Shown here: positions 3 to 24,346 of the stretch, in pieces
How positions within the stretch are numbered: the stretch's first letter is position 1
Layout: the number at the start of each line of letters is the position of its first letter
Origin: Candidatus Diapherotrites archaeon CG10_big_fil_rev_8_21_14_0_10_31_34
GTDB taxonomy: Archaea > Iainarchaeota > Iainarchaeia > Iainarchaeales > 1-14-0-10-31-34
Length of the DNA: 32,017 nt
Assembly: GCA_002763225.1 (NCBI GenBank)
Contig: PFAI01000057.1
Span: forward strand, 10,090-42,106
Reading direction: 5' to 3'
Made by a program: the position numbers and the translations under genes
Notes under the pieces: generated by a model
Told to the model about the DNA's origin: nothing
What the model saw: only the letters and a program-made list of their open reading frames with translations
Databases searched by the model: none

Positions 3-1514
3 ATGATTGGAACTCTTCCCTCAAAAAAATATATTGGGCCATATGAAATTTCATTGAAATTTAAAGGAGAAAGTACAAGCGAACAACGCGAAACAGTTAC
101 TGATGCATTTGAAAAAGCATTAGCAGTAAGCGTTCAAAAAGGGAATTTTTTTGAAGTGGTTAACTGTGAAAACGGGGATCCGGAAAACTGTGTCGGAACA
201 TTTTATTTAAATTTAAGGATAGGAGAATTAGATGATAAAACATATGAATCTTTTCCTCAGATTAAAATAAAAAATTCCAGAACCCAAAGAATATTACAGG
301 AATCAATTTTTCCTAAAGGAGACATAAAAATTTATATTCCAATCAGATTATTCAAGGCAATGGCTGAAGCAAGAGCTTTAGCATTGGAATTCGGAGAAGA
401 AAAAGGAAATTTATGGAAAACAAATTATGGATTGTTTTCTCCAAGAATCCACAATGAAATAGAAGAAATGAAATTAGGAATATGTGATTCAGGTTATTGT
501 TCTGTAAGAACAAATCCTTATGTTCATCCGGAATTTGAAAACATGGATGGAATTGGCTGTCCAAACACCCAAAATAATATAGGAGCATCACTTGCAACTT
601 TTACTGAAATAATTCCAGTGTATTGCACTCAGGATTTAAAAAACAGAGGCATTTGCAGTAATGTCGGGGCAACAATATTTTATTATAATCCAAGCCGGCA
701 GGCAGATAGTGCAAGCCAATCAAACAGGCTTGCAATGCTTGCAGAATTAAGATTATGTTATTTAGCTGGAGAAAATTACAACACAGGAAATTATTTGGAT
801 CCAATAGTTGATGGATTAAATTTAATTAATAATACTTCAAGCGGATTGCCTTGTGATTTAGGAGGAGGAAAAAGCATTTCTTTTTCAATTAGCGCAACAC
901 CAAGAAATTCAGTTAAAATTGAATCACCTGGAATATCTGGAAATGTTTCATTAGGAAGTTCTACATTAACTGCATATAATGCAAATTATCCTTATTCAGA
1001 GTCTGGCTCAAATTGCCCTCAGATTTCTTCTGCCGGAACAATTTTAATGGGAAATTTTGGAGTAGGAATTGAAGAAATTAATGGAACAGAAAAAATTGTT
1101 CAAAAAACAACAGATGATCCATGTGTTTTTAATGGTTCTAATATGAGTTTTGGTTCAGGGCTTACAACACAATATACAACACAATATACAACACAATATG
1201 CAACATGCAGTGAAGTAACAAGAGTCGCAGTTAATTTAAGTTTTCAGGAAACAAACCAAAATTATATTGTAAATAAAACAAGAGAACCAGTTTATGTAAT
1301 TGAATTAGTTGACAACAAATTTACTCCAGATAAAGAAGAATTAAACTTTCATCAAAAAGAAGATTATAAAATAGACACAACAACTTGTGGTTTTGAAGAA
1401 AACTCTCAATCAAATTCAAATGAATGTGTTGACAGCGAATGGATATGCGAAAGTATTCCAGCAACAGCATCAGGAGGGCCTTCAACATTTACAGGGGGCT
1501 GCAAAGTTAAATAA
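3..1514 (+). CDS. Cysteine-rich secreted/surface protein, C-terminal 503 aa (5' end lies outside the window)
   Basis: The ORF is open from the window edge to TAA at 1512-1514. Its purine-rich coding-strand composition matches the neighbouring genes. It has many Cys residues and N-x-S/T sequons and no hydrophobic core segment. I recognise no family and no obvious similarity to the three giant paralogs downstream. Confidence 0.6.
   Translation: MIGTLPSKKYIGPYEISLKFKGESTSEQRETVTDAFEKALAVSVQKGNFFEVVNCENGDPENCVGTFYLNLRIGELDDKTYESFPQIKIKNSRTQRILQESIFPKGDIKIYIPIRLFKAMAEARALALEFGEEKGNLWKTNYGLFSPRIHNEIEEMKLGICDSGYCSVRTNPYVHPEFENMDGIGCPNTQNNIGASLATFTEIIPVYCTQDLKNRGICSNVGATIFYYNPSRQADSASQSNRLAMLAELRLCYLAGENYNTGNYLDPIVDGLNLINNTSSGLPCDLGGGKSISFSISATPRNSVKIESPGISGNVSLGSSTLTAYNANYPYSESGSNCPQISSAGTILMGNFGVGIEEINGTEKIVQKTTDDPCVFNGSNMSFGSGLTTQYTTQYTTQYATCSEVTRVAVNLSFQETNQNYIVNKTREPVYVIELVDNKFTPDKEELNFHQKEDYKIDTTTCGFEENSQSNSNECVDSEWICESIPATASGGPSTFTGGCKVK
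1164..1199 (+). repeat. Perfect in-frame tandem repeat, 3 x 12 nt (acaacacaatat), encoding TTQY x3
   Basis: Read directly: three identical 12-mers at 1164-1175, 1176-1187 and 1188-1199, in frame with the 3..1514 ORF (TTQYTTQYTTQY, then ATC). Confidence 0.95.
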
Positions 1515-1640: not shown

Positions 1641-4600
1641 ATGGGCTTAAAAGAGATTTATTCAGCCATTGAAGAAAAGTATTACGGCTTGATGGACGGC
1701 ATAGATAAAACAGGAATCCCAGTATATAAAGTCATAGATTTTTTTGAATCAAAAAACATTCCTTCTTTCCCATTATTTATCATATTTATTCTCCTTATAA
1801 TTGGCGGATCATTTTTCCTTTTAACCGGAGCAGGCGGCTTTCTTGAAACAACAACAGATTTTTCAGTTATAGTTAAATCAGATGGAATAGGAGTAGATGC
1901 AGCAACACTAACTTATGAATTAAAAGGAGAAAAAAAAACTGTTACAACTGATTCAGATGGAAAAGCAAAACTTGAAGTAATAACAGGAAAAGATTTTATT
2001 GTAACTGCAGCAAAAGAAGGATTCAAAGAATCAAAAGCAACATTTAATTCTTCAAAAGACACAACAGGATTAATGGTTTTAATTTCAAGTTTATTACAGC
2101 CAATTAGAGTCCAGTTACTGGGAAAAGGAAATGAATTATTAAGCAAAAATATTACTGTAAATTTTACTTGCACAGAAAACAATGAATGGAATGAAAGAAT
2201 AACTGTTTCAACAGGAAGCGCAGAACTAAGTGATGTTCCGGCTGACTGCGGAACAATTTTAGCTGAACCAGCAGGAATGCAATGCGATGAATGCAATTTT
2301 AGAGCTGACGGTTCATTAATTAAAATTTATTTAGATGAAGTTGAAACAGAAACAGGAACAATTTCTTTTACAATAGAAGATTCAACAGGAAATTTATTGG
2401 ATGGAATTGAAGTATTAGTTATTCCTGCCGGAACCACTATAGCAGAAAACTCCTGCACAACATATAATGGAATGTGCAATGCTGAAGTTCCTTTTGGAGA
2501 ATATTATGTCAGGGCAACAGATTATTCAGGAAAAATGAAGGACTTTGATTCCAAAGGAAAAACAAATAATATTATAATTAATTCAAACAACCAAAATATT
2601 GAATTTAATACTATTACATTAGAAGAAGGAGCAATAGGAGAAATAAAACTAAGAGTAAAAGATTCAGATGGAAAAGCAATAGAAAATGCTTTAGTTAAAT
2701 TATTCAAAGACGGAACAGAAACAAGAGAACAAAGAACTACTTCTTCAGGAGAAGCAGTAATAAAAGTTGCAGAACAAATAAATTACACTATAACAATAAC
2801 TCATCCGGATTATTTGAATTCAGGTTCAAAAACTGTTTCACCTAAAACAGATTTTTATGAAATAATTTTAGAGCAGGCAACAGCATCAAATAAAAGAGCA
2901 ATAAGTGTTTCAGTTGTAGATGAAAAAGGAGAACCAGTTGAAAACACTAAATTGTTTTTGAAGGACGCAGATACACTAAATATTGTTGGAGACGAAAAAA
3001 TAACCGGCTTTGACGGAAAAGCAGTTTTTGACAGAGTAGCTGAAGGAGAATATATTGTCAGAGCAGAAAAAAGAGGGTTTGAAGGAAAAGACTCAAAAAG
3101 AATTGAAGTAAAAGAAAAAGAACCACAAGAAGTTACAATAGCTTTAGATATAGGTGAAGGAACACTTGAAGTAACTGTAGTGGATAAAGAAAGACAGCCA
3201 ATTCAGTCAGCAACAGTTAAAGTAAAAGATTTTTATTCAAACCAAGAGTATGCAGTTTATTCAACTGACCAGGAAGGCAAAAAAAGTTTTACTATTAGGG
3301 CAGACAAAAAAGTTTTTTTGGAAGTAAGCGAATCAAGCCACTCAAATTATATTAGTGCACCAATCCAAATGTTTGACGGAACCGAAGAAAAAACAATTAT
3401 ATTAGAAGACGAAATTAGTGTATTCCAGGTTAAATTAGATTCACTTGAATTAGAAGGACAAGCATTAGAAGATGAAACAGTTAATCAGGGAAAAACATAC
3501 AAAGCAGTATTCAAAGTAATGATTCCAAGAGGAACAGTTTCAACTGAAGCAGGAACCCATATTAGAACAGGAGCAGACACAAAAAACCAAAACAATACAA
3601 TGGAAAAAGATGATCTTTATATTAAAAGTGTCAGCGCAGCAAACGCAAAAATAATTAAAGGAACAACATTTAATCCAAGCACAGGAGAAGGAATAGATAA
3701 TTCTCATTTAACTTCAGGAAACGCTAAATGGGCAAACATAATATTCAATAATGTAAAAGAAGCAGCATATGAAATAATTGCAGTAATTCAAGTAAGAGAA
3801 ACAGTAAGCGGAACAGACATGGAATTAGCTTACAGAGGATGGGTAATTGAAGGAGGATACCAAAGAGACCCGTTTGACTCAGAATTACAGGAAGCAGAAA
3901 ACACTGGAATAAAACAAGGATTATATGCTGAAGCAAGACACGAGCCATTAAGAATTGGGGCATCAAGTTTGTGTTCAGAAAACTTTTGCACAAGTTTTAC
4001 TGCAAGAGATTTAGCTAATGCAACAAGAACAAATATAGTTGATTCATTTCCGGCAGAAATTTCATCTAATTATGAATTAGAATTTAATATAATCAGCATA
4101 AGCGAAAAAGCTTATTCTAACAGCGAATTAGTAATAGAAGGAAAAGGACTGAAATTAAATTCATATGAAATTGAAGGCGACAAAAAAAATGCTTCAGACA
4201 AAATAGTTATTCCGATTGGAAGCATTTCAAAAGGGCAAAAAATGTCAGGCAAAATAAATTTCACCACTAAAAGCGAGGGAACAAACAGAATTGATTTCAG
4301 CTTGTTTGGCGAGAGTTTAAACTTAGGAAAAGAAAAAATATTGTTTAAGCCAATCAGAGCAGAAGTGGCTTTAGCAAAAACAATGAATATAATTACTACT
4401 CCAAAAAATTTGGTTCCTTTTATCCAAAACAATTTACTGGTTAAATTAACTGATGAAGAAGAAAATGATTTAGCTGAAACAACAATAAAAATAGAAAAAG
4501 ACAATGAAACTGTTTCAATTGGAAAAACTGATTCAAAAGGAATTTATGCTTTTAGTTTTGAAGCATTAAACGCAGGAACAGAAATAAAAATTACTGCAGA

Positions 4601-7600
4601 AAAAGCAGGATTTAATCTAGCAGAAAAAATAATTAATATAAGTGAAAACATTGTTTCTTTTGTTCCAACAGAAATCAGTGAAAGCTTTAACGCAAAAAAA
4701 TATTCAGTACCGGTTACAAGAGATATTATAGTCAAAAACATCACTGAAATGCCTTTAACACTTCTTGATGTGGAATTAACTGATTCATTCAAGGGATTAA
4801 TTGAAACAAAAATTGAAAGCTATAATGAAGAACTGCTTGCCGGAGAACAAGGGCAAATATTAATTGATTTAGGTTTAACAGAAAAAGGAAGAAAAGTAAC
4901 TCAGCTTACTTCAGTTACAGGAGAAATAATAATTATATTTGAAGACCCTGAAACAGAAAAACAATGGACTGCAAGTGTTCCACTAAATATTACAATTGGT
5001 TTAGGAGGAGAAGTAGATTACACTGACTGCTTTTCAATTGCTCCAATTGAATGGAACATATTAACCCAAAACAAAACAAAAGAACTCAAATTAGTTTTAA
5101 ATAATTCTTGTACTGTAGACGGAGAAAATATTGCATTAAAAAACATTAAAGCAAAAGTAGTCTGGAAAGAAAATGCAATAGGAGACTTTGACTTAACTTC
5201 AACAATTGAAGGAACAAACTCAATTACCTTAAAAAACACTTACCAGATTTTAGCTGAAGAATTCAATCCAACTTCAGGAGAAGAAGAAAATTTAGGGTTA
5301 GTATTCCTTCCGGATGACATTCCAACAGGAAGCGGAACAGCAACAGTTTACTTGGAAGCAGTTAACCCGACAGAAAACGGAGAACAATTATTAAAACAAA
5401 AAATTGAAGTAAATGTTCAGATAAGCGATTTAACTGAATGCCTGAGAATTACCCCAACAAACAACCAGCTAAGAATTCAAATGAATTATTATAACCAAGG
5501 ATGGGGTTATAACAGCCAGTATTTTGGATATGATCCTACTGCTTCACAAGGAAGCGTTTTCAATAACAGCAATGTTGTTTCAGTTGGAGATTACAGGAGC
5601 CAGCAATGGCCTGCAACCTATAATTACATGGGCCAGTACACTAATCCACAGGCATATAATTCAGCATTAAATTATTCATGGAATTTTAATTCTTCAGGAA
5701 CCGCTTCAATTGAAATACAGAATAACTGCCCTTCACAGGTTCAAATTGAATTAGATCCTGCAGCAGAAATAAGTGTTTCTGACTCAACCATTATGCTGGA
5801 AGAAGGAGGAAGCAAAACAATTGAAGTAACTCCTTCAATGTTTATTGGGCAATATAAATTGGTTATAAAAGCAAAGTACAAGCAGTCAGATGAATCAGCT
5901 TCAGAAGTAGCAAGATACAATGTTTTGGTTGAATCAGAATTCATGAAAAATTACTATGACTGCATTACATTAAGCCCGACAACTTTCACTTTCAATGACA
6001 TTATAGCAAAACCAGTTGAAGGAATAATCTGGAATACCTGTTATGACCAGGGAGTAATATTAAGCCAGAACTCTATTCCATCAAGTTTGGATGGAACAGC
6101 AACATACACAAGCAACCAATATAATACGCTTTCAAATTCAACGCTTTATGCAGGCACCCAGGTTCAGACTGCACAAAACCAGAAAAAACTTGAAAGCTCT
6201 GGAATAATTAAATCAATCCAGATTTATCCAATAAGCAATAAACCTGGTGTAGACGGAAAAATCACTCAGGAACTAAGATTCAGGTTATGGAAAAATCTGG
6301 AGTACACGCCAAAAGACATTAAACTTCCTGATGACACAAATCCATTAGTTGAATTAGCTAATTTAAGGATTAGGTTAAGCGGACTGTATTACAAGGTTGA
6401 AGCAGAAGAAAGGCTTCCAATAACATTTTATAACACATCAGGATTACAGGAAACCCTTCCATTTGACATAATCATTGAAGATTTATGGGCATTAGCAGGA
6501 CAAGATATAATTGACTTTGGAAATGCAAATATTACCCACCAGCAATGCATTATGCAATTAAATTACACTGACAAAGCAAAAGTTGGGGGAACAAACCAAA
6601 GATGCTTTGAAAACGAAATATTCCAAAACGGAATACTGGATGTTGACGCACAAAAAGTAATAAAGAAAAAACAAGAAGCAAACGGGGGAAAAGATTATTG
6701 CGGTGACCCAGACAGAATTGCAGGAATAATTAACAACAGAATTGAATTAGACTCTGGAATAGTATTGCTTTTCAATATATATAACGGAGACAATATTAAA
6801 CTGACAATAGATAAAACTAATGCAACATGCAATCCAAAAAACATTTCAGGAACACTTTATGCAGAGCTTTCAAGAAGCAATCCTGCAACCACTAAAACAG
6901 TTTCAATTCCATACAAGTTATGCATTGACTTAAAAGGACTGCCTTTATGCACTGAAAAACCTTTGACTACTCCTGAAAAAGAATGCAAAGACAAAGCAGA
7001 GGATGAAACAAAAATAATAAGTGAAAGAATAGATGAAATATTAAAAGGAACAAAAGACAGGCAAACAAAAATTGATGAAATAATTGACGTTTTAAAAGAA
7101 GCCTGTTCAGATTTAACTGGAGAAGAACTCAAAAACATTGCAGAAAAAATGGTTGATGAAACTCCAACAACAGAAATAACAACATGCTCTGAAGGAGGAG
7201 TAACAGGAACAGGAGCTTATGAAAAATACTGTTTTAACACAATTAAATTAGACTGGAGCTGGGATTCAATTGGCATAAAAGAATGCGATTCAGAAGAAAC
7301 TTTCTGTGATTCCTCTCAGCTAACAATTGAATTAGCAAAAAAAGCAGCAAAAATAAATGAACTGGGAATAATAGAAATAGACCAGTTATGCAATGGTTAT
7401 TGTGGAGAAGACGTAAAGAATTCAGCGAATTTATTCAGGTTTTTGATAAACCAGACAAGAGTAAAAGATGAAATAACAGGAGCCACACAAGTATTTTTCA
7501 TTGACAATGATTACTCTATTATTGCAGGAACAAAATTCAGTGAAAAAGAATTAACAGAAGAGCTAAGGAAAACCGGATTAATTGCAGGCTGGTTAGAAAG

Positions 7601-9173
7601 CAGTTTAACCGGAAACGCAAAAACAGTAACTGATTTAGTTGATGACATAATAAAAGAAATGGAATCAAACAAAAACATAGACCTGAATTCAGTAGTAGGA
7701 GAAATTGATTTAGACAAAATTGATACAGGAATATTAGGCGCAGGAGAGCTGGAGAAAATGCTTGGAGCAGACAGAATTGAAACAGGAGCAAACAAATATT
7801 TTGTTACATTTAATGAATACAAAGAATTCAGAAACAAGCTAAAAGCATGCATTACAGCAAATCCTAATGCAATAGAATGCCCGATAGAAAAAGTAAAAAA
7901 TAAATCATCAGGAACAACAAATACAATTATAGTTAATCTTGATATGATGAAAGAATTACAGCAAAACATTGAATTCAAAGTAGGAATAAGAAATGTTAAA
8001 GAAATTTCAGAAGAAGATAAAATAACAATTATGCAAAAAGGAAAAGTAAGAGTAAAAGAAAAACTAAAACAATTTGGATATAACACATTACTAGAATTTT
8101 ACAAAGAAAACATTGAATTCACTGCCTACTTAAAAAAAGACGGTTTTGGTTCAGGGTTTAATTCAGACTTCTATAACGCATACTTAAATGAAGCAAAAGC
8201 AGATGAAGGAAAAATACTGGAAGAATTCAAATCAGGAACAGCATGGAAATTCAAAACAAAAAACAACTCAATCGAAACAGGAAGCCACAAAGTATTATTA
8301 GCCTATGACTGGTTTGCTAATAAAAACACTGAAGTGACAATCACATTAGAAGACAAAATGGAAAAACTTCATCCAGAATGCCAAAACAATTATTTATTTA
8401 ACATTCCGTTTGACGGAAAAATAGGATATGAAGACAATAAAAGAGAAGGTTATGGAACAAAATATGGAACAGATAATTCAGTTAACGAAATTTATCTGAA
8501 TACAAAAATTGCATTAAAAGATGATTTAACAAATGGAATTAGCTCTTATAACGCAGAAAAATCAAATAAATTTGGAGACAGCAGAAGCGGAACAATACTG
8601 GAAATCAATGAAGACAAAACATTTAATTTTACTCCATCAAAAGCAATTGGATTAAAAGCAGACCTTTCTTCAAGCGGAAGCAAAGGAGTATTCTATGATT
8701 TAATGCATGGACAAACACAGGTAATTGGAATAAAAGAAGAAACAGGATTAAGCTATTTGTTTAACTGGACTGCAGGACAAGATAATAAACAAAAAGAAAG
8801 CCAGTTAAACAAAGCAGACCAGACATGCACTCAGGAAAGATTTGGAATAATCTTTGAAGCAAATGCAAAAGAAATCCAAAAAGTATTAAGCTTTATTCCA
8901 GTGGAATGGGGCTATAATTTCAAAAGGCAATGCAGTAATGGAATTGATTCAATGACCGGATATGCATTTGATGAAAACGGAAAAGCAGAAAAAACAATCA
9001 TTCCGGCAAACGGAACTTTTACTTCACAAGACATGTATGGGGACACAGCAAAAAACACAAGCCTGCAGAAATGGATTGAAGACATTAAAACAGGAAATGT
9101 TTGTGTTACTACAACCACAAAAGAATTCAAGCTTGAATGGAATAAACAAAAATTAATGGCGGAGCTAAGCTAA
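1641..9173 (+). CDS. Giant membrane-anchored surface protein, paralog 1 (2510 aa): conserved N-terminal leader, one TM anchor, tandem CarboxypepD_reg-like beta-sandwich repeats, Cys-marked central region, conserved C-terminal module
   Basis: An uninterrupted 7.5-kb ORF with ATG at 1641, preceded by gaggggaaggt (1626-1636, SD-like). The N-terminus is MGLKEIYSAIEEKYY...IPSF, followed by a hydrophobic helix (about nt 1764-1835). About six ~80-aa repeats span roughly nt 1857-3410, for example ISVSVVDEKGEPVENTKLFLKD...GKAVFDRVAEGEYIVRAEKRGF, which is typical of carboxypeptidase regulatory-like/Ig-like folds. Landmarks shared with the other two giants include LCSENFC, GGEVD..C and KLDWSW...FCDSSQ. 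N-glycosylation sequons are abundant. Confidence 0.9.
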   Translation: MGLKEIYSAIEEKYYGLMDGIDKTGIPVYKVIDFFESKNIPSFPLFIIFILLIIGGSFFLLTGAGGFLETTTDFSVIVKSDGIGVDAATLTYELKGEKKTVTTDSDGKAKLEVITGKDFIVTAAKEGFKESKATFNSSKDTTGLMVLISSLLQPIRVQLLGKGNELLSKNITVNFTCTENNEWNERITVSTGSAELSDVPADCGTILAEPAGMQCDECNFRADGSLIKIYLDEVETETGTISFTIEDSTGNLLDGIEVLVIPAGTTIAENSCTTYNGMCNAEVPFGEYYVRATDYSGKMKDFDSKGKTNNIIINSNNQNIEFNTITLEEGAIGEIKLRVKDSDGKAIENALVKLFKDGTETREQRTTSSGEAVIKVAEQINYTITITHPDYLNSGSKTVSPKTDFYEIILEQATASNKRAISVSVVDEKGEPVENTKLFLKDADTLNIVGDEKITGFDGKAVFDRVAEGEYIVRAEKRGFEGKDSKRIEVKEKEPQEVTIALDIGEGTLEVTVVDKERQPIQSATVKVKDFYSNQEYAVYSTDQEGKKSFTIRADKKVFLEVSESSHSNYISAPIQMFDGTEEKTIILEDEISVFQVKLDSLELEGQALEDETVNQGKTYKAVFKVMIPRGTVSTEAGTHIRTGADTKNQNNTMEKDDLYIKSVSAANAKIIKGTTFNPSTGEGIDNSHLTSGNAKWANIIFNNVKEAAYEIIAVIQVRETVSGTDMELAYRGWVIEGGYQRDPFDSELQEAENTGIKQGLYAEARHEPLRIGASSLCSENFCTSFTARDLANATRTNIVDSFPAEISSNYELEFNIISISEKAYSNSELVIEGKGLKLNSYEIEGDKKNASDKIVIPIGSISKGQKMSGKINFTTKSEGTNRIDFSLFGESLNLGKEKILFKPIRAEVALAKTMNIITTPKNLVPFIQNNLLVKLTDEEENDLAETTIKIEKDNETVSIGKTDSKGIYAFSFEALNAGTEIKITAEKAGFNLAEKIINISENIVSFVPTEISESFNAKKYSVPVTRDIIVKNITEMPLTLLDVELTDSFKGLIETKIESYNEELLAGEQGQILIDLGLTEKGRKVTQLTSVTGEIIIIFEDPETEKQWTASVPLNITIGLGGEVDYTDCFSIAPIEWNILTQNKTKELKLVLNNSCTVDGENIALKNIKAKVVWKENAIGDFDLTSTIEGTNSITLKNTYQILAEEFNPTSGEEENLGLVFLPDDIPTGSGTATVYLEAVNPTENGEQLLKQKIEVNVQISDLTECLRITPTNNQLRIQMNYYNQGWGYNSQYFGYDPTASQGSVFNNSNVVSVGDYRSQQWPATYNYMGQYTNPQAYNSALNYSWNFNSSGTASIEIQNNCPSQVQIELDPAAEISVSDSTIMLEEGGSKTIEVTPSMFIGQYKLVIKAKYKQSDESASEVARYNVLVESEFMKNYYDCITLSPTTFTFNDIIAKPVEGIIWNTCYDQGVILSQNSIPSSLDGTATYTSNQYNTLSNSTLYAGTQVQTAQNQKKLESSGIIKSIQIYPISNKPGVDGKITQELRFRLWKNLEYTPKDIKLPDDTNPLVELANLRIRLSGLYYKVEAEERLPITFYNTSGLQETLPFDIIIEDLWALAGQDIIDFGNANITHQQCIMQLNYTDKAKVGGTNQRCFENEIFQNGILDVDAQKVIKKKQEANGGKDYCGDPDRIAGIINNRIELDSGIVLLFNIYNGDNIKLTIDKTNATCNPKNISGTLYAELSRSNPATTKTVSIPYKLCIDLKGLPLCTEKPLTTPEKECKDKAEDETKIISERIDEILKGTKDRQTKIDEIIDVLKEACSDLTGEELKNIAEKMVDETPTTEITTCSEGGVTGTGAYEKYCFNTIKLDWSWDSIGIKECDSEETFCDSSQLTIELAKKAAKINELGIIEIDQLCNGYCGEDVKNSANLFRFLINQTRVKDEITGATQVFFIDNDYSIIAGTKFSEKELTEELRKTGLIAGWLESSLTGNAKTVTDLVDDIIKEMESNKNIDLNSVVGEIDLDKIDTGILGAGELEKMLGADRIETGANKYFVTFNEYKEFRNKLKACITANPNAIECPIEKVKNKSSGTTNTIIVNLDMMKELQQNIEFKVGIRNVKEISEEDKITIMQKGKVRVKEKLKQFGYNTLLEFYKENIEFTAYLKKDGFGSGFNSDFYNAYLNEAKADEGKILEEFKSGTAWKFKTKNNSIETGSHKVLLAYDWFANKNTEVTITLEDKMEKLHPECQNNYLFNIPFDGKIGYEDNKREGYGTKYGTDNSVNEIYLNTKIALKDDLTNGISSYNAEKSNKFGDSRSGTILEINEDKTFNFTPSKAIGLKADLSSSGSKGVFYDLMHGQTQVIGIKEETGLSYLFNWTAGQDNKQKESQLNKADQTCTQERFGIIFEANAKEIQKVLSFIPVEWGYNFKRQCSNGIDSMTGYAFDENGKAEKTIIPANGTFTSQDMYGDTAKNTSLQKWIEDIKTGNVCVTTTTKEFKLEWNKQKLMAELS

Positions 9174-9183
9174 AGGTGATTAA

Positions 9184-12100
9184 ATGGGGTTAAAAGATTT
9201 GTATTATGGAATGGAAGACAAATACTATGAAGTAATAGAAAAAATTAGTGAGACAATTCCAATAAACAAATTAATTGACCCGATTGATAAAATAGTTCCT
9301 TCTTTCATGGTTTTTTCTGGCTTAATAATTTTCCTGATTTTGATTGCATTAGCTTTAATGTATTCAGGAAACCTGGGAGAAGAAAAAAATTTGAGTTTTA
9401 AACTGATTGATGAAAATAAAAAAGCAATCGGAAACACTGAAATAAAAGTTTTTTTTAATGACAAAAATATAACAGTTAAAACAGATGCATTTGGGGGAAC
9501 CTCAAAAGACAAAATTGTTGTTCCATTAAATTCAACTGTAAGTTATTCAATTGACGCACAAGGGTTTCTGAAAACAAACGATCAATTCAAGTTCACTGAA
9601 GAAAAAACATATGAAATCACTTTAAAAAAAGAAACAGTTCAGGGAAAAGAAATTGAAAGAACAATCAGATTATATGACAGTTCAAACTCAACTGAATTAA
9701 TTTCAAACAGAACTTATACAATATCTTTTTCCTGCAGTAATTCAGCTGCAACCCCCCCTTCAAATATAACTATTTCAAACGGAAAAGGAACAGTATTTGA
9801 ACCAGCAAACTGCGGAATATTAACTGCAAATATTGAAGGAGACCATTCAGAATCAAAACACATTGCATTAAGCGATTTAATCAATTCAATTTACTTGGAT
9901 TCACTTGTAAGCAATTATAATTTAACAGTAAATGTAGAAAACACAGAAGGAGAAGCATTAGATGACATTAAAATAAAAATTTACAGGGTTTATGATGATA
10001 ACCCTAACCCCGTTTTTGCTGACAGTTTAATTACTTCTTATGGCAGAGCAGAATTTGAATTAGAAGCAGGCGAATATGAAATCAAAGCATTTGATGAAAT
10101 CAATGGATTGTATTACGAAAAAAGCAAAAACTTATATAATTTTTCTTCAAACCAAAGTGTCAGTCTTTCAATGGAAAGAATAGGGCCGTTAGGAGGAAAA
10201 ATTTCAATTACAGCAATAGACAAAGACACTGAATTTGAACTGCCTGAAACAAAAGTAACTTTATATGATTCAGACGGAATAATAGCTGAAGAAAGAACAA
10301 CAGATGAAACAGGAACAGTTGAATTCAATTTAAGAAACAAAGATGGATTATATGAAGCAGTATTAGACAATGAATTATATTTAGTTCAAAGAGTAACAGA
10401 ATTAGAAACAGAAAAAAGTTATACAATTGAATTAACTAAGTTTACGGGACAGAATTCAGGAGCATTAAAAGTCAGGGCAATAACTGTTTCAGGAGAAAAA
10501 GTAAAGCCAGTAAGAAATGCAATGATTGCATTATATTCAGTTGAAGATGAAGAAATATTTTTAACTGGTTTAAGCGAAAAAATAACTGATGAAAACGGCA
10601 GTGCAAAATTCCAGAGAATAGAAAACGGGAAATACAAGATTTTTGCTTACAAAGGAACTTCTTCGGGTTGGAGCGACGAAATACAATATGACAAAAGAAA
10701 TGCAAGTGAAATAGAATTAACTGCAACAATGATTATTCCAGACGGATTTATTGATTTGCAGATAGTTGACCAGGAAAACAATTCAATTCCTTTTGCTACA
10801 GTAACTTTTTTTGAAACAGGTGCAGTAAAAGAATTAAATTCATATAAAACTGATTCAGACGGAAACATTAGTTTTACAACCAAAGCAGACAAAAAAGTTT
10901 TCTTTAAAGTTAGTGCACCGGATTTCATGGATTACTATAGTTTAAGTTATCCGATTTTTGGAAACGAAACAGTTTTTAAAACAATTAAAATGATTCCGGA
11001 AAAAACAATGGACAAACCAGAAATAAATTTAACTGGATTATTTACTGACGGACAAGAATTAAGTGAAGCAAGTTCATTAGAAAGAGGACAAGAATACACT
11101 GCAAAACTTCAGTTAATTATTCCAAAAAACAAGAATTATGATTCAGCTGGAATTCATTTCAGAGTAGGAAACGATGTTTATATGGAAAACGATTTGCTGT
11201 TAATTAAAACAATTAATGCAGCAAACGCAGTAACAGAAAAATACACTATGTTTGATTCAGGCAATTTAAATGACTCAAAAAAAAGCCAGACCCAAGGAGA
11301 CGCAAAATGGTTTAACTCTTACTGGTTTGTTCCAAAACCAGGAGTATATAATATTGAAACAGTAATTTTTGTAAAAGAAAATGCTTTAGTCGGACAAGAA
11401 CTGAATTTAAAGTTCAGGGCATATGGAAAAACAGGCGGAAAATATGACAGAGACCCTGAAGACGTTGAAGTAAGCTATTCAGAAGAATTAAATGCCGCAA
11501 CAAAAACAAAAACTTATACAATTGGAACAAATGTTTTGTGTTCAGAAAACTTTTGTTTTACTGCAAGAATTAAAGACAAAGAAGAAGACTTAATTGAAAG
11601 TGTTACAAACTCATCTTATTCAACAAAGATTTTACGGGAATATGAATTATGGTTTGACATAATGAACAATAATGAAACAAGAAAGCATTATGAAGCAAGA
11701 ATCCAGTTAAGCAATGAAAACGAAATGCTGAATTTTACTAATTATGAAATAAAGAATGCAGATGCTTTAACAAAAAAAGGTTTTGCTGATGCAACAGAAA
11801 CAAAATGGATTGAATTAGGAGACTTTGATCCAAACACTCATGTAACAGGAACAGTTAATTTTATTACACAAAAAGCAGAACCAGGAAGCATTTTAATCCA
11901 GATTGTTTCAAGCCAGGAAATAGTGTTTGAAAAAGACATTTCTTTAGATGTTAAAGCCCCAAAAACTTTTTCAATGGAAATTAAACCAGAAATAATTCCT
12001 GCTATAACACCAAACACAGTTGAATTCAATGTAACTGATGAAGAAACAGGAATTGAAGTAGAAAACGCTGAAATAAAAGTTTTAGACAGATTTAATGACT

Positions 12101-15100
12101 TGATTGCAGGACCAATAATGACAAACAAAACAGGAAAAGCAATACTGGTAATTCCAGGACAGGCTCCAGACACAACACTAACTATTAGAGCATCAAAAAA
12201 AGAGTTTGAAGTATTAGAACAAGAATTACCAGTTAGTGGAAAAATAGTTGAAATTACCCCGGAAAAAATAGGGTTATTATTAAACACCCAAAAAAATCCT
12301 TCAGATATTTTTGGATTAAAAATAAAAAATTTACTGGACTTTGATTTAGAATTAACTTCAATTAAATTCACAGGAAATCCAAGAGGACTGCTTGACTTGG
12401 ATGCAATGGAAGCATGGGCTGAAACAAACCACGGAAACAAAATAATTCCATCAAAATTATTTGAAGAAATTGAAATAAAAGCAATTTTAACTGATTATGC
12501 AATTGAAAGAGGAGAAAGAGATATAGTTGACTTAACATTAGAATTAGAGTTTTCTAACGGAGAAGCAGTTTGGACAGAAGAAATTCCTGCAAGAATTTCA
12601 ATCGGAGTAGGCGGAGAAGTAGATGATCCAAATTGTTTAAGCCTTGAAACAAAAGAATGGAAAACAGGAACAGAAGGACAAAAAGTGCAAGTGGATTTAT
12701 CAATTGAAAACTCTTGTACAATAGACGGAAAACCTGTTGACTTAAAAGATTTGGAAGCAAAAGTTAACTGGAAAACAAATCATGTTGGAAGATATTCTTT
12801 GGCTTTTGAAGACACTGCAATTGAATTAAGGTCAGCTTACTACAGAAAAATGGATTCAACAATAAAAAACGGAATAAGCACTGCAGTACTGTCTTTTGAG
12901 CCAAACGGAGGAGTAAACGGAGAAGCAATAGCAGACATTGAATTAAGGGCAAGAAATGAATTAGAAGGAAAAGACGAATTTATTTCAGATGTAATTTCCA
13001 CTGAAATAAAAATAATTAATTTAGAAGACTGCATTAAAATTTCTCCAACAGAATTAAAAATCAGAAAAGGAGAAACAGCTGCATTTAAAGTTGAAACACT
13101 TGGATGCGGAAGTACAATTGAATTTACTTTAAACCCTGAAGTAAAAGTCAGCCAGGAAAGATTTTCTTTAGGAAGCCAGGCAAGCCAGGAAATAATAGTT
13201 GATTCAGCAGGAGAATACTCCGGAAGATTCTTGATTGGAGTACAGGCAAAAGGAAATGAATTGCAGACAAAAAACGAACTGCTAAATGTGTTTGTAACAA
13301 TATTTGAAGATTCTTGTGTAGAGTTAAGCAGATATGAATTTGATATTTATGATGACCCAAATCAGTTGTATGACGGTTATGATACAGCACAATTATTTAA
13401 CAGATGCCCGGAAAAATTAGTTGACATAACAGTTGACATGCAGGACTGGAGTTTAGCAATGAGAAAAGCATTGCTTCCGACAGTAATTGCTTTTGGGGCA
13501 ACAACGGTTTTTGGCGGAGACGAAGAAAAAAACAATGAGTTATCACAAACTACAGTTAAAATCCCAAAACCAGTTGAAATGAATGACTATGATATGGATT
13601 CTGAAGACCCAATGCAAATAAAATATAATGAAACTCCTGCAGAAGTCAGCAGCCAGCAAAGCCAGCCAATTAACAAAGGAGCATTTGGATGGATCAGAGA
13701 AAATTCCAAAGCACAAAAACAGGAATTAATTATTACTGAAGGAATTAATGACAAACCAACAGTAGCAGAAAATAATGATAATGAACCAATAATTGTAGAA
13801 GAAGTTGGAGAAACTGTTTCTGCAAAAGAATCAATTCCTGCAACAGGAATGTCAATTATTCCGGGGTTAGACGGAATAAATAACCTGCTTGGATTAGGAA
13901 ATTTGCTTCCAAGCATTTTTGGAAATATTAATCCTTTCACTGCATTTGGATTGACTTTTGTCGGAGCAACCTTATACAATTACTTTGAAGCAGACACAAT
14001 AAGCATAACAGGAATTCCAGTTGAAGACATTGTAGTAATGGACTTAAAATTATTAGACGGAATAGCTTATGCTAATGAAAAAATTGAAGTGGAAGAAACA
14101 GGCATTACAATGAATTTAGACGGCCCGTTTTCCTGCTTTGACTCTTTAACAGGAGAAGTAATTGACTGCTGGGACATAACTTTTGTAAACACAACAGGAT
14201 TAATTCAGGAAAATGAAAACACTCCGATAATGAAAATACTTAAAACAGAGTCAATAGAAAAATTCTGGAAAAAAGATTATGACGCAGACTACTTTAATGA
14301 AAACAAAAACTTTTTTGAAAAACTATTGCAGGGAACAGAAATGAATTATGAAAAGCCATTAGAAGAATTAACTGAAAAAAGAAATGAAATCAATCAATAT
14401 AACAGGCTACAGTTTAATTCATGGAAATACACAGACGATATAACCGGAGACCAAGGCTATGGTTCCTGCAGATTAGGAGAGCTAAACGGGGAAACAGGAG
14501 AACAAGCCCTGCCAAAAATTAAATTAGACTGGAGATGGAATAAAATTGATTCAGATCAATGCGACCAGGGAAACTCAGATTACATTTACTGTGATGCAAC
14601 ACAATTCTCAATTGAATTATTAAAGAAAATAAATGAATTAACTGATTTATTGGAACAAGAACAATTGATTTGTTCAGATGACTGCTCTACTTTGAATGTT
14701 TCTTCTTTAATCCAGAAAACAGAAGAAGAAAGAGGGGCAACAGCAAACAAAGAAAAAATAACTGAATTAATTAATTTCAGGTCTTATTTAATCCAAGACG
14801 GTTATTCAACTGACTTCCAAGAAGACTTCCATGATTACGCAGTAAATGAAGCCTTTTTTGAAACTCCAATTTATTATTATTCACCAGAAGAAAATGATAA
14901 ACTAGGAGAATACTTTAAAGACAAAGAATTATTTGACTTTGAATATGACGGAAGCCCTAATGCGCCATTGTCTGCTCCTGGGTTATATAAAGTGTTTATT
15001 GAAATTGAATACAATGATAATTCATGGAAACTATTTAAGGGAAGCAATCCAAATGCAAAAATAATTATTAGATTAGATAAATTAGAAGCAGCAAAACCAA

Positions 15101-16108: not shown

Positions 16109-19100
16109 TTGGGTTTAAAAGATATTTATAATTCAGCTGAAGACAAATACTATGAAATAATTGACTCAATAGATAAAACCATTCCAATAACAAAAATAAC
16201 TGATGCAATTGATTCAGTTGTTCCTTCTTTTGCTTTATTGCTGGTTTTGATTGTTTTAGTTCTAGGATTTTTATTATGGCCAGTAATTTTTCCTGCAGAA
16301 ACAATTTCATACAAAATAACAGTTGAAGATGAAAACGGAAATTTTTTAGAAGGAATAAACGCAAGCATTACTCCGGCTGAAACAGGAAAAGGAGATTTAA
16401 TGCAGGGAATATTTACAACAAATGAAAAAGGGGAAATAAATTCAACTGCAAGAAAAGGAACAGAAATAATAATTGAAATAAAAAATTCAGGGTATGAAGA
16501 AGAAAAAAGAAATGCAATAATAGAAGAACAAAATCAAAAAATTATTTTTAAATTAAAAAAACTTGTTTCAGAAGAGCCGGCTGAAGCAACACTAAGGTTT
16601 ACTGATTCAGGAGGCCAAAGAATTACAGGAAAAGAAATTACAGTTAAATTAAGCTGTAGAAATTCATCTGTTGTTCCTTCTCCTTCAATTGTACGGGATT
16701 CAGATAAAGACGGAGAAATAATTGTTCCAATTCCAAAAGACTGCGATAAATTAATGGTTGACTCAGTTGAAGTGCTGGGATTTGAAGAATGGAACGGAAT
16801 GGTTAACGGAGCAGTATTATCCATTAAATTAGATTCAATTTCAGAGGAAACAGACAATGAATTAACCGGAGACTTAAGAGTTGTAGTGCAGGATTCAGAT
16901 GGAAATCCATTAGACGGAATAAAAGTAAATTTAATGAAAGGCAATTCAACAATAAAACAAGAATACAGTGATTCAGGAGAAGTGCAGTTTATTGGAGTAT
17001 TAATCGGAGAATATGATTTAGTTTTACAGGATTCAGAAAACAATTATGCAATAAAAAAAGTTTATTCAGTTGAAATCTATAATCAAACTGTAACAAAAGA
17101 AATAGTTGAAATGAAGTTAACCCAAAAAGGAACACTAAAAGTAACAGTAAAAGATATTGATACAGGAACAAGAATAGAAAACGCAGAAGTATTAATTACA
17201 GGTAATGCAGGAGAAATACTTGGAGAAGAAAACACAGGAGAAGACGGGTTAACAGTAGAGTTTGCCTTGTTTTCTGACGAAGAAATAACTATTATTGTAA
17301 GACACGAAGATTACCTGCCTGAAACAACAGTAATAGAAGAGATTTCAAAAGATGGAACAGAAATAACGATTGAACTGGAAAAAATCACTTCAGCTAACAG
17401 CGGAAAACTAAATATAACTTTAGTTGACGAAGAAAACAAAAAAGTAGCTAATGCAAGAGTAATGATTTTAAATGAAGACAAAAGCTTTGCAACACAATAC
17501 CCTGAAAAGTTTTCTGATGCAAAAGGAGATGTAAATTATTCAGGAATAAAAGAAGGAAGTTATATTGTAAGGGCAGAAAAATTTCCTGCTTCAGCTCAAT
17601 CAGATTTATTTGAAATAAATTTAACTGAAATAACTTCAATGACAGTAAAAATGACAATAGGAAATGCAAAAATCCATTTAAAAACAATTGATAATGAAGG
17701 AAATCCAATTCCATTTACCAGAGTAAAAGTTAAAAGTCTGGATAAAGAAAACGAATATCCTTTAGATGAAAAAGGAGAAACAGAATTATTAATTAAAGCA
17801 GACAAAAGAGTTTTCTTTGAATTTTATGACCCAGAAGACAATTATGCAAAATATACTACAAAAGAATATCAGTTGTTTCCAGAAGAAATTAAGCCGGAAG
17901 GATATGAAATTGTCGGAGTAATGAGCGAACAAATTGCAGGACAAGGATTATGGGTTGAACTAAAAGGAGTTTATTCAGATGGAATAAAACAAGATGTTTT
18001 AGTCGGCGGAAGACCTTATATTGCAGTATTTGAATTATTTGTTCCAACAGATGAAAGCTTTGATTCAGCAGGAATTCATGTAAGAGTAGGAGAAGACTCT
18101 CATGTTTTTATGGAAAACGACATTGTTTCAATTAGAAAAATTAATGCACCAGACGCAACAAAAATAAAAGGAAAAACATGGAATCCTGTTAAAGGAGAAG
18201 ACATTGATTTGGATGTAGATAATTCGGCTTCATCTAATGCAGAAGGAAAATGGGCTAATATTGTCTGGGATAAAGTCCAGCCAGGAAGATATCAAGCAGA
18301 AGTTGAAATAAAAATAAATGAACAGGCAACTGATTCAGATGAAATTTCAATTAAATACAGGGCATGGGGAAAAGGACAAGGATATTATTATTTCCCTGCA
18401 GACAATGACCTTGGAGCAACAAAACAAATGCTTTATGCAGAAACACTTGAAACAGTATTTAATGCAGCAGAAGAAATTCCAATCTGCGAAGAAAATAATT
18501 TATGTATGTCAGGACAAATACTACTTGATTTAGAAGAAGAACCTTTTATTACACAAAAAAAACTGCCGTTTAAAACAAAAACATTTGGAACATATGAGTA
18601 TGAATTCAAAATAGCAAACAATTCACTGTCAACTTATGATGAACCAGAAATATGGATTAAATTAATTGACCCAACAGAAAACAACGGGCAGTATGTTGAA
18701 ACAAAAAAAGCAGAAATAGCTTATTATGAAATTAAAAGAGCTGACGGAACAATCATAAAAAACACTGAATTAAATGACACTTCAACTCAGGGAATTGAAC
18801 TAGGAAAATTCATGGACCAGTCAGTAATAGAAGGAACAATTGGAATAAAAACAAAAAATGCCGGAAGCATTTATGCAAATGTTTCAATAATAGAAAAAAC
18901 AAATAAAGGCTCAAATGAAATTTTTAATAATGAACAAAAAACACAAATTAAAATAAGTTCAGAAAAAGAATTAGTTATTACAGCAAAACCAGAGTTTGTT
19001 CCTGCATGGGTTGAAACTCCAATTGAAATCACAGTAAAAGATGATGAAGGAATTGAAGTGGAAAACGCTTTAATTACTTTTAGTGTAATTGAAAGTGAAA

Positions 19101-24089: not shown

Positions 24090-24090
24090 A

Positions 24091-24345: not shown

Positions 24346-24346
24346 A

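What the first reader, a model, noticed from the sequence alone, without database searches (positions are those of the whole stretch)
1641..1769. The best-conserved part of the giant proteins is a ~41-43 aa N-terminal, presumably cytoplasmic, leader before the TM anchor
Manual alignment of the three N-termini gives this consensus: MGLK[ED][IL]Y-x3-E[ED]KYY-x2-[IM]-x2-I-x2-T-(G)-IP[IV]-x-K-x-[IT]D-x-[IF]-x(2-3)-[IV]PSF. The three leaders are encoded by nt 1641-1769, 9184-9306 and 16109-16231. Giants 2 and 3 are identical at about 26 of 41 positions by my count, visibly more than in most of the extracellular regions. The positive-inside rule cannot be applied cleanly here, but a long polar segment before a single anchor suggests an N-in topology. 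If so, a cytoplasmic peptide is under stronger constraint than thousands of extracellular residues. That would point to a docking or sorting signal for a dedicated export, assembly or anchoring partner. I do not recognise it as a Sec, Tat or class III (pilin) signal.
Basis: partly seen in the sequence, partly recalled or inferred. Interest (0 to 1): 0.65.

Follow-up and report, generated by a model that had tools for sequence, protein, structure and literature searches.

The report
Conserved cytoplasmic leader on giant archaeal surface proteins
The three giant membrane-anchored proteins in this window start with a real, very strongly conserved 41-43 residue segment that marks hundreds of giant surface proteins in one uncultured archaeal phylum (Iainarchaeota/Diapherotrites), matches no curated family, and most likely stays inside the cell as a docking foot next to the membrane anchor.

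Summary
The three N-termini (nt 1641-1769, 9184-9306, 16109-16231) align as described, and G2/G3 share 26 of 41 residues. This is the best-conserved 45-column stretch among the paralogs (0.50 mean identity against 0.26-0.30 overall).

A profile of the leader finds 861 protein clusters in 1.84 billion representatives, essentially always N-terminal and mostly on 1000-3250 aa proteins. In species-representative genomes, nearly all of the best 80 of 168 confirmed matches are labelled Iainarchaeum/Diapherotrites (DPANN). Pfam, NCBIfam, PDB sequences and the paper library gave nothing.

Anatomy: an amphipathic helix (residues 3-24), a short helix (28-35), an invariant Pro-Ser-Phe cap, a ~25-residue hydrophobic helix, then beta-sandwich domains. 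Twelve positions are at least 90% conserved in 242 leaders.

Proxies favour an uncleaved N-in signal anchor. The first paralog carries its own conserved leader variant, and the operon (pilin-like protein, three giants, four small membrane proteins) is syntenic across genomes.

Best reading: a retained cytoplasmic docking or assembly module. Its function is untested. The neighbouring HerA-like protein has a degenerate Walker A motif, so it is unlikely to be an export motor.

The parts
1641..1769 (+). Leader of giant 1 (43 aa). This is the G1-type variant, with an extra Gly before IPVY and an ...ESKNIPSFP ending.
   Evidence: The leader HMM scores 71 bits. The variant is conserved in G1-type proteins from 17 other loci.
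1770..1844 (+). Hydrophobic signal-anchor helix of giant 1 (aa 44-68, PLFIIFILLIIGGSFFLLTGAGGFL).
9184..9306 (+). Leader of giant 2 (41 aa, canonical type).
   Evidence: HMM score 77 bits. The AF2 model has helices 3-24 and 28-35 with pLDDT 82-88.
9307..9369 (+). Signal-anchor helix of giant 2 (aa 42-62).
   Evidence: The AF2 model has a helix at 40-62.
16109..16231 (+). Leader of giant 3 (41 aa, canonical type; TTG start with a Shine-Dalgarno-like GAGGGG upstream).
   Evidence: HMM score 79 bits.
16232..16297 (+). Signal-anchor helix of giant 3 (aa 42-63).
1641..9173 (+). Giant 1 (2510 aa): leader, TM helix, beta-sandwich (CarboxypepD_reg/Big_1) stalk, and Cys-containing C-terminal head.
9184..16020 (+). 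Giant 2 (2278 aa), same architecture.
16109..23302 (+). Giant 3 (2397 aa), same architecture.
3..1514 (+). C-terminal part of the conserved upstream gene. Full-length homologs (~470-580 aa) begin with a pilin-like [KR][GA]F(N/T)LF(T/S)ALV hydrophobic N-terminus.
   Evidence: Homologs lie directly upstream of giant 1 in 17-18 loci. N-termini were read. Pfam is silent.
23404..24652 (+). Four small polytopic (~3 TM) membrane proteins, S1-S4: 23404-23751, 23751-24089, 24067/24091-24345 and 24299/24347-24652. They are candidate membrane partners of the anchors.
   Evidence: Synteny directly after giant 3 in L007, L028, L038, L046, L074 and L080, and partly in L035 and L047. TM segments. S1-S3 are distant paralogs.
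25146..25652 (+). 168-aa membrane protein with a His-rich tail. It has weak homologs in three of the syntenic loci.
25654..26232 (-). 192-aa acidic coiled-coil-like protein, transcribed divergently from the HerA-like gene.
   Evidence: Conserved in L007, L028, L038 and L046. A gene of similar size (173 and 144 aa) holds the same position in L080 and L078, but its homology was not tested.
26347..27861 (+). 504-aa HerA-fold protein with a degenerate Walker A motif.
   Evidence: Homologs carry PF01935. Foldseek top hits are HerA, at E 4e-14. The Walker A position reads IFGSTPKDRKH and varies across the family.

Best explanation
The 41-43 aa segment is the cytoplasmic half of a conserved N-terminal anchoring module. 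The module consists of an amphipathic helix (residues 3-24), a short helix (28-35), an invariant Pro-Ser-Phe helix cap, and an uncleaved signal-anchor helix of about 22-25 residues. It defines a large family of giant, beta-sandwich-rich surface proteins found almost only in Iainarchaeota/Diapherotrites (DPANN archaea).

Proposed mechanism:
1. The hydrophobic helix is inserted by the general SRP/Sec route as a type II (N-in, C-out) anchor, and the ~2300-aa ectodomain is threaded out.
2. The leader folds on the cytoplasmic face and is retained there.
3. Its near-invariant residues form a specific protein-binding surface. These are the Tyr-Glu-Tyr-Asp ridge at i+4 spacing on helix 1, and the P-[VI]-Y-K-x-x-D-P-I-D-K-x-x-P-S-F segment.
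4. That surface holds the anchors in a defined membrane complex. The partners are the other giants (G1-type variant plus canonical G2/G3-type leaders), the small polytopic membrane proteins encoded in the same operon, or both.

What is shown: the conservation, the family-wide distribution, the predicted helical anatomy, the paralog-specific variants and the synteny.

What is inferred: the topology (from proxies only), retention of the leader, and the existence and identity of a binding partner.
For: - Distribution: 861 clusters match the leader profile, essentially always at the N-terminus (motif start at residue <=15 in about 120 of 150) and mostly on 1000-3250 aa proteins.
- Taxonomy: 168 genomic matches were confirmed, and nearly all of the best 80 (76 loci) are labelled Iainarchaeum/Diapherotrites.
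- Residue conservation: in 242 distinct leaders, Y8, E12, Y16, D20, P27, Y29, D33, I35, D36, P40, S41 and F42 are each 0.90-1.00 conserved. The following TM helix is conserved only in hydrophobicity. This pattern fits a specific interface better than a generic topogenic segment.
- Structure: AF2 (mean pLDDT 91.8 over 150 residues) gives helix 3-24, helix 28-35, a TM helix at 40-62 and then a beta-sandwich. Helix 1 is amphipathic, with muH 0.40-0.51 against 0.18+-0.09 for shuffles.
- N-in, uncleaved: the uncharged run has a median of 25 aa. The N flank has more K+R than the C flank in 64% of proteins and fewer in 8%. Some members have 40-150 aa K/E-rich extensions before the leader. There is no other anchor in the giants.
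- Paralog-specific constraint: G1-type proteins share their own variant (...LDWLDxKGIPVYKVVDAIExxNIPSFP), whereas G2/G3-type proteins keep IDPIDK[IV]VPSF.
- Conserved operon: tandem arrays of 2-3 leader-bearing giants occur in many loci. They are followed by four small polytopic membrane proteins. In 18 other loci a ~160-aa polytopic membrane protein sits between giants 1 and 2.
- The leader is not needed to export the head module, because head-only proteins carry ordinary signal peptides. This points to anchoring or assembly rather than export itself.
Against: - No partner has been demonstrated, and no complex prediction or co-evolution test was possible.
- Many leader-bearing genes are singletons in other genomic contexts, so any partner would have to act in trans.
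- The ~160-aa membrane protein found between giants 1 and 2 elsewhere is absent from this window.
- The TM helix is not sequence-conserved, so helix-helix packing in the membrane is not indicated.
- Topology and non-cleavage rest on proxies, not on a dedicated predictor or on experiment.
- Most leader-bearing proteins are also homologous beyond the leader (80 of 87). The leader could therefore simply be the slowest-evolving domain of one family rather than a portable signal.
Confidence: 0.45

Rival explanations
1. The leader is a targeting or translocation-control extension of the signal sequence. This would be functionally like the ESPR extension of giant autotransporters, or like the YSIRK and KxYKxGKxW motifs of large Gram-positive adhesins. 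On this reading it selects the insertion route or site, or slows insertion so that a very long passenger is exported in order. It acts transiently during biogenesis and is not a permanent docking element.
For: The leader is found only in front of a hydrophobic helix and very long beta-sandwich-rich passengers. A few carriers (7 of 87) share nothing detectable with the window giants apart from Ig-like or PKD domains, which hints at some modularity. Shorter relatives of the head module use ordinary signal peptides, so the leader correlates with size and stalk, as ESPR does with long passengers (established knowledge of ESPR).
Against: The hydrophobic segment is of anchor length (median 25 aa) and is the only anchor. 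The leader is 40+ residues long, net acidic and predicted to be folded, unlike the n-regions of known extended signal peptides. Pfam models of ESPR, YSIRK and KxYKxGKxW do not match. Paralog-specific leader variants conserved across genomes are not expected for a generic routing signal.
Confidence: 0.2
2. The leader is a partner-free interfacial foot and topology determinant. On this reading the amphipathic, Tyr-rich helices lie on the inner membrane face, block N-terminal translocation (forcing N-in/C-out), and stop a single TM helix from being pulled out by a 2300-aa ectodomain.
For: Helix 1 is significantly amphipathic. Aromatic residues are abundant (Y8, Y/F9, Y/W15, Y16, Y29, F42). The flanks of the TM helix are only weakly basic, so an additional topogenic element would be useful. 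The PSF motif sits exactly at the predicted start of the TM helix.
Against: Near-invariance of acidic residues (E12 at 0.99, D20 at 0.98, D33 at 0.92, D36 at 0.94) is hard to explain by lipid contact alone. Paralog-specific variants suggest recognition. The mean hydrophobicity of helix 1 is about zero, which is low for an in-plane membrane helix.
Confidence: 0.2
3. The leader is a cleaved propeptide. Either leader plus hydrophobic helix is an unusually long signal peptide removed by signal peptidase, or the leader is cut at the invariant Pro-Ser-Phe junction on the cytoplasmic face by a dedicated peptidase, as prepilin peptidase does for class III signals.
For: The invariant P-S-F lies exactly at the cytoplasm/membrane boundary, where prepilin peptidases cut. 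A gene with a pilin-like N-terminus lies directly upstream in 17-18 loci. Small residues often follow the hydrophobic run.
Against: There is no [KR]-[GA] at -2/-1 as in class III signals; the junction reads [KR]-[VI]-[VIF]-P-S-F. The h-region is too long for typical signal peptidase I substrates. Cleavage after the TM helix would leave the giants with no anchor at all. No peptidase gene is conserved in the operon.
Confidence: 0.08
4. The conservation is not selection on the protein. It would instead reflect gene conversion between tandem paralogs, or a nucleic-acid element at the 5' ends of the genes.
For: The three genes are tandem paralogs in an AT-rich genome, where identical codons are common.
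Against: Nucleotide identity of the leaders is only 0.64-0.73, and synonymous differences occur at 7-8 of the identical residues. The same amino-acid motif is kept in hundreds of clusters that are <=50% identical to each other, from different genomes.
Confidence: 0.02

Closest known systems
ESPR (extended signal peptide region, Pfam PF13018) of giant type V-secreted proteins in Proteobacteria
   Same: A conserved N-terminal extension placed before the hydrophobic core of the export signal, restricted to very large surface proteins, and more conserved than the passenger.
   Different: ESPR is about 25 aa, basic, bacterial, and part of a cleaved Sec signal peptide. The leader here is 41-43 aa, net acidic, predicted to form two helices, followed by an anchor-length helix, and archaeal. 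No sequence match was found.
YSIRK-G/S (PF04650) and KxYKxGKxW (PF19258) signal-peptide motifs of large Gram-positive surface proteins
   Same: Lineage-specific conserved motifs in the N-region of the signals of giant adhesins. They direct proteins to a particular secretion site or to an accessory Sec pathway.
   Different: Those motifs are short, lie in cleaved signal peptides, and the proteins are anchored at the C-terminus by sortase. Here the N-terminal helix is the only anchor, and the motif spans a folded 40-aa segment. No Pfam match was found.
Cytoplasmic N-terminal docking peptides of bitopic proteins (PilN INLLP motif binding PilM; FtsN N-terminus binding FtsA)
   Same: A short, highly conserved cytoplasmic peptide immediately before a single TM helix, more conserved than the extracytoplasmic part, which docks the protein to a partner.
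   Different: Those peptides are 10-20 aa, their partners are known actin-like ATPases, and the proteins are small. Here the partner is unknown, the proteins are giant, and there is no sequence similarity. This is a mechanistic analogy recalled from general knowledge, not a tested relationship.
Type II signal-anchor membrane proteins (N-in, C-out, uncleaved)
   Same: A single N-terminal hydrophobic helix of about 22-25 residues, a more positive N flank, a large C-terminal ectodomain and no other anchor.
   Different: This is a generic topology class and does not explain the near-invariant 40-aa cytoplasmic sequence.
Class III (type IV pilin/archaellin) signal peptides
   Same: A conserved motif abutting the cytoplasmic end of a hydrophobic N-terminal helix. 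A pilin-like gene is the conserved upstream neighbour.
   Different: Class III leaders are short, basic and end in [KR]-[GA]. This leader is long, acidic and ends in P-S-F.

Membership tests
Sec class I cleavable signal peptide | Short (about 2-10 aa) positively charged n-region | tested here: not met
   The segment before the hydrophobic run has a median of 42 aa and is net acidic (K+R 6.3, D+E 8.2).
Sec class I cleavable signal peptide | h-region of about 7-15 residues followed by a c-region with small residues at -3/-1 | tested here: inconclusive
   The uncharged run has a median of 25 aa (5th percentile 17), which is anchor length. No cleavage-site predictor was available, and small residues do occur after the run.
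Tat signal peptide | Twin-arginine motif (S/T-R-R-x-F-L-K) before the h-region | tested here: not met
   No RR appears in any of the three leaders or in the family logo.
Class III (type IV pilin/archaellin) signal peptide | Short basic leader ending in [KR]-[GA] immediately before the hydrophobic helix | tested here: not met
   The junction is [KR]-[VI]-[VIF]-P-S-F, with P at 1.00, S at 0.96 and F at 0.95. The leader is 41-43 aa.
ESPR / YSIRK / KxYKxGKxW extended signal motifs | Match to the Pfam models PF13018, PF04650 or PF19258 | tested here: not met
   The Pfam scan of the three giants at E<=0.01 lists only beta-sandwich families. NCBIfam finds nothing on the N-terminal 200 aa.
Type II signal-anchor protein | A single hydrophobic helix of >=19-20 residues as the only membrane segment | tested here: met
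   One Kyte-Doolittle peak lies at the N-terminus of each giant. G3 has one further internal hydrophobic patch (aa 1507-1556), and none of the giants has a C-terminal one. AF2 places the TM helix at 40-62.
Type II signal-anchor protein | N-terminal flank more positive than the C-terminal flank (positive-inside) | tested here: met
   The N flank has K+R 1.69 and the C flank 0.92. K+R is higher on the N side in 64% of proteins and lower in 8%. Net charge is N>C in 61% and N<C in 19% (n=137).
Type II signal-anchor protein | Experimentally uncleaved, with a cytoplasmic N-terminus | not testable with these tools
   This needs proteomics or reporter fusions. DeepTMHMM and SignalP were not available.
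HerA/FtsK-type ATPase (for the 504-aa neighbour proposed as partner) | HerA fold (HAS-barrel plus RecA-like core) | tested here: met
   The Foldseek top 50 hits are almost all HerA structures (e.g. 4d2i_A, E 3.7e-14). Several homologs carry PF01935.
HerA/FtsK-type ATPase (for the 504-aa neighbour proposed as partner) | Intact Walker A motif GxxxxGK[ST] | tested here: not met
   The aligned position reads IFGSTPKDRKH in the window protein and varies (for example VSGGRKEARAH) in all 12 homologs. No GK[ST] is present.

The most novel reading that the evidence does not exclude
The leader is a previously unrecognised archaeal sorting and assembly signal. It would be a retained cytoplasmic docking peptide read by a dedicated, lineage-specific machinery: the small polytopic membrane proteins of the operon, possibly together with the ATPase-dead HerA-like ring and its coiled-coil partner. 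That machinery would assemble three giant paralogs, one with a distinct leader variant, into a heteromeric cell-surface structure (an envelope canopy or attachment organ) of Iainarchaeota.
Probability: 0.2. Interest if true: 0.8.

Novelty: new variant of a known kind. Interest (0 to 1): 0.55.

Why it matters
Iainarchaeota have no cultured member, and their cell envelope is unknown. A 54-position profile of this leader picks out what look like the main giant surface proteins of the phylum: hundreds of clusters, several loci per genome, and a conserved three-gene operon.

The leader also exposes a conserved gene neighbourhood: a pilin-like protein, three giants, small membrane proteins, and an ATPase-dead HerA-like protein. 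That neighbourhood can now be studied as one system.

If the leader is a docking or sorting signal, it would be the first archaeal counterpart of the conserved N-terminal motifs known on giant bacterial adhesins. It would also offer a handle for pull-downs and for heterologous display. If it is only a structural foot, it remains a useful, uncurated family marker.

Tried and rejected
- Curated libraries. The Pfam scan of the giants and of the neighbours found no model on the leader. NCBIfam found nothing on the N-terminal 200 aa. The PDB sequence search with the leader profile gave only noise, E >= 0.12.
- Fold search. Foldseek with the N-terminal model matched only the beta-sandwich. Catechol dioxygenase hits that include N-terminal helices have TM about 0.49 and are judged coincidental.
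- Word-indexed protein search. It returned only short fragments and gave no taxonomy. The exhaustive search was the informative one.
- Viral contigs. The single candidate, L081, scores 4.5 bits with the leader HMM and is not a leader.
- Literature. Searches for the motif, for giant DPANN or Iainarchaeota surface proteins, and for conserved cytoplasmic N-termini found no description.
- Sequencing runs. Only DNA runs from groundwater and aquifer metagenomes hold the locus, so there is no expression evidence.
- Gene conversion or an RNA-level explanation was rejected.
- The HerA-like protein as an export motor was rejected because of its degenerate Walker A.
- My initial recollection that methanogens carry a similar motif was not borne out. 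Genomic hits are essentially all Iainarchaeota-labelled.
Full report
**The locus.** The window is AT-rich (31.6% GC) and archaeal; a family B DNA polymerase is encoded at 29561-31984. Three tandem genes encode proteins of 2510, 2278 and 2397 aa. Their N-termini read MGLKEIYSAIEEKYYGLMDGIDKTGIPVYKVIDFFESKNIPSF, MGLKDLYYGMEDKYYEVIEKISETIPINKLIDPIDKIVPSF and (TTG start) MGLKDIYNSAEDKYYEIIDSIDKTIPITKITDAIDSVVPSF. Each is followed by a hydrophobic run of 21-25 residues.

**Checking the observation.**
- G2/G3 share 26 of 41 residues, G1/G3 share 23 and G1/G2 share 19.
- In the full-length alignment, the first 45 columns are the top-ranked window, at mean identity 0.50. Overall identities are 0.255-0.304. 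The runner-up, at 0.44, is a Cys-containing island in the C-terminal part (KLDWxW...YCDxxQF).
- In 24 comparisons of a window giant with its closest full-length relatives from other genomes, the leader is 0.42-0.68 identical. The TM helix is 0.16-0.40 identical and the remainder 0.28-0.33. Only 0-248 of about 2300 equally long windows do as well.
- Leader nucleotide identity is 0.64-0.73, with synonymous differences at identical residues. The constraint is therefore on the protein, not on the DNA or through gene conversion.

**Distribution.**
- An eight-sequence profile (52 positions) was searched exhaustively against 1.84 billion cluster representatives. It found 861 proteins at E<=1e-3 and 418 at E<=1e-10.
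- In the best 150, the motif starts at residue <=15 in about 120. The proteins are mostly 1000-3250 aa; the short ones come from short contigs or are split genes.
- A scan of one genome per GTDB species gave 168 confirmed matches, of which the best 80 (76 loci) were kept. Nearly all of these are labelled Candidatus Iainarchaeum or Diapherotrites, including the complete AR10 genome.
- A few loci are labelled Micrarchaeota, Thaumarchaeota or Falkowbacteria. At least L071 has the same neighbours as Iainarchaeum loci, so a binning or label error is likely.
- Several genomes contribute two or three separate loci.
- No viral contig carries the leader.
- Pfam, NCBIfam and PDB sequences do not recognise it. 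I found no paper that describes it.

**Anatomy of the leader.**
- In 242 distinct leaders, the following profile positions are 0.90-1.00 conserved: Y8, E12, Y16, D20, P27, Y29, D33, I35, D36, P40, S41 and F42.
- The consensus is (MG)xxDxLKDxYYxLEDK[YW]YxxLDKIDxKIP[VI]YK[IV][IV]DPIDK[VI][VIF]PSF.
- AlphaFold2 was run on G2 residues 1-150 with a 38-sequence alignment (mean pLDDT 91.8; 82-88 over the leader). It gives a helix at 3-24, a short helix at 28-35, a TM helix at 40-62, and then a carboxypeptidase-regulatory-like beta-sandwich.
- The invariant P-S-F therefore sits at the N-cap of the TM helix.
- Helix 1 is amphipathic, with muH 0.40-0.51 against 0.18+-0.09 for shuffles. The four invariant residues Y, E, Y and D form an i+4 ridge on it.

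**Topology.** Dedicated predictors were not available, so I used proxies.
- The uncharged run after PSF has a median of 25 residues (5th percentile 17). That is anchor length, not the length of a cleavable h-region.
- The 15 residues on the N side hold more K+R than the 15 on the C side in 64% of 137 proteins, and fewer in 8%.
- Six of the 150 representatives carry 40-150 aa K/E-rich extensions before the leader (for example P0118 and P0119). Such extensions are not compatible with a signal-peptide n-region.
- The giants have no C-terminal anchor.
- Everything after the helix is beta-sandwich-type (CarboxypepD_reg, Big_1, SpaA, PKD), which indicates an extracellular location.
- N-in and uncleaved is thus the best-supported topology, but it is not proven.

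**Family and context.**
- Of 87 long leader-bearing representatives, 80 share similarity with G1-G3 beyond the leader, and about half do so over the whole body. Of the seven that do not, six were scanned against Pfam: five have beta-sandwich or PKD arrays and one has no hit.
- Loci from other genomes show the same tandem arrays of two or three leader-bearing giants.
- The first paralog has its own leader variant, conserved in G1-type proteins from 17 other loci (...LDWLDxKGIPVYKVVDAIExxNIPSFP). The second and third paralogs keep the canonical form.
- The truncated ORF at 3-1514 has homologs directly upstream of giant 1 in 17-18 loci. Full-length copies start with [KR][GA]F(N/T)LF(T/S)ALV..., which is a type IV pilin-like N-terminus by eye. 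Pfam is silent on it.
- Four small ~3-TM proteins (23404-24652) follow giant 3 in every locus where that region is visible. The HerA-like homolog in one of those loci (L080) is only 38% identical to the window's. Three of the four are distant paralogs.
- Elsewhere, a ~160-aa polytopic membrane protein sits between giants 1 and 2 in 18 loci. It is absent from this window.
- A second kind of locus has one 1200-1800 aa leader protein, a ~580-aa protein and a ~840-aa protein. The last of these has an ordinary signal peptide and aligns with the C-terminal ~500 aa of G2 at 27% identity, E 8e-32. Exporting this head module therefore does not require the leader.

**The proposed HerA-like partner.**
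- The 504-aa protein (26347-27861) has a HerA fold (Foldseek, 4d2i_A, E 3.7e-14). Several homologs carry PF01935.
- The Walker A position is degenerate in all 12 aligned homologs.
- In syntenic loci it is paired with a divergently transcribed coiled-coil gene. A gene of similar size holds the same position next to its most distant homolog.
- That most distant homolog (26% identity) lies away from any giant, among envelope-biogenesis genes: Band_7, STT3, GT4, a class III signal protein, an exosortase-like protein, SPP and M50.
- It is therefore not an export motor. A scaffolding role remains possible.

**Interpretation.**
- The combination of a near-invariant, acidic, Tyr-rich two-helix segment, paralog-specific variants, a non-conserved TM helix and conserved small membrane-protein neighbours is best explained by a retained cytoplasmic docking or assembly module attached to a type II signal anchor (confidence 0.45).
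- Three rivals remain open: a biogenesis-only targeting or timing signal analogous to ESPR or YSIRK (0.2), a partner-free interfacial foot and topology determinant (0.2), and a cleaved propeptide (0.08).
- A nucleic-acid-level explanation is effectively excluded (0.02).
- The leader is not a member of the Sec class I, Tat, class III, ESPR, YSIRK or KxYKxGKxW families by their defining features.
- It fits the generic type II signal-anchor class. In concept it resembles the cytoplasmic docking peptides of PilN and FtsN. That is an analogy from general knowledge, not a tested relationship.

**Verdict.** The leader is an uncurated, phylum-restricted N-terminal module, and I rate it a new variant of a known kind of feature. 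Interest is moderate (0.55).

Noticed in passing
window 3-1514 (+); homologs such as L003 535-2265, L011 475-2130, L016 591-2015: The conserved gene directly upstream of giant 1 is truncated by the window edge. Full-length homologs start with [KR][GA]F(N/T)LF(T/S)ALVxFxLI, which looks like a type IV pilin-like class III signal on a ~470-580 aa protein. Pfam gives no hit.
   Followed up: partly
window 26347-27861 (+): This 504-aa protein has a HerA fold (Foldseek E 4e-14), but the Walker A motif is degenerate across the whole family (IFGSTPKDRKH; no GK[ST]). It is probably an ATPase-dead HerA-like ring protein. The family comprises only about 23 clusters, and the few with a source name are labelled archaeon or Diapherotrites/Micrarchaeota.
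   Followed up: yes
window 25654-26232 (-): This acidic coiled-coil-like protein is transcribed divergently from the HerA-like gene, and homologs keep that position in four syntenic loci. A gene of similar size (144 aa, homology untested) occupies the same position in the most distant relative (L078), which sits among envelope-biogenesis genes (Band_7, STT3, GT4, class III signal, exosortase-like, SPP, M50).
   Followed up: partly
window 23404-24652 (+): Four small ~3-TM proteins lie directly after giant 3 and are syntenic in at least six other loci. S1-S3 are distant paralogs sharing a [KR]-x-x-L-G-[ST]-G-P motif. The likely true starts of S3 and S4 are the ATGs at 24091 and 24347.
   Followed up: partly
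window 24654-25142 (+): This 162-aa, very basic ORF has no homolog in any syntenic locus. It is either specific to this lineage or not a real gene.
   Followed up: no
L070 16505-19159; also L034, L040, L047, L069, L071: Proteins of ~800-885 aa with an ordinary signal peptide carry only the C-terminal ~500-aa head module of the giants (27% identity to G2 residues 1769-2270, E 8e-32). They sit in a second type of locus, together with a 1200-1800 aa leader protein and a ~580-aa protein that has a signal peptide and a C-terminal TM helix.
   Followed up: partly
L004 9307-9792, L009 8558-9067 and 16 further loci: Two families of ~160-aa polytopic membrane proteins lie between giants 1 and 2 in other genomes. 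No homolog is present in this window, where the two genes are 10 nt apart.
   Followed up: partly
window ~7900-8100, ~14500-14700 and ~21700-21900 (alignment columns ~2100-2160 of the giants): A Cys-containing island (KLDWxW...C...YCDxxQF..EL.K) in the C-terminal head is nearly as conserved as the leader. It is also present in the head-only proteins.
   Followed up: no
window 27962-28997 (+): This is an overlapping gene pair: an HTH plus Polbeta/NTP_transf_2 nucleotidyltransferase (27962-28561) followed by a HEPN-domain protein (28533-28997). That is the arrangement of an MNT-HEPN toxin-antitoxin-like module.
   Followed up: partly
L057, L071: These leader-bearing contigs are labelled Falkowbacteria and Thaumarchaeota. 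L071 has the same neighbour families as Iainarchaeum loci, so these are probably binning or labelling errors rather than spread outside the phylum.
   Followed up: partly
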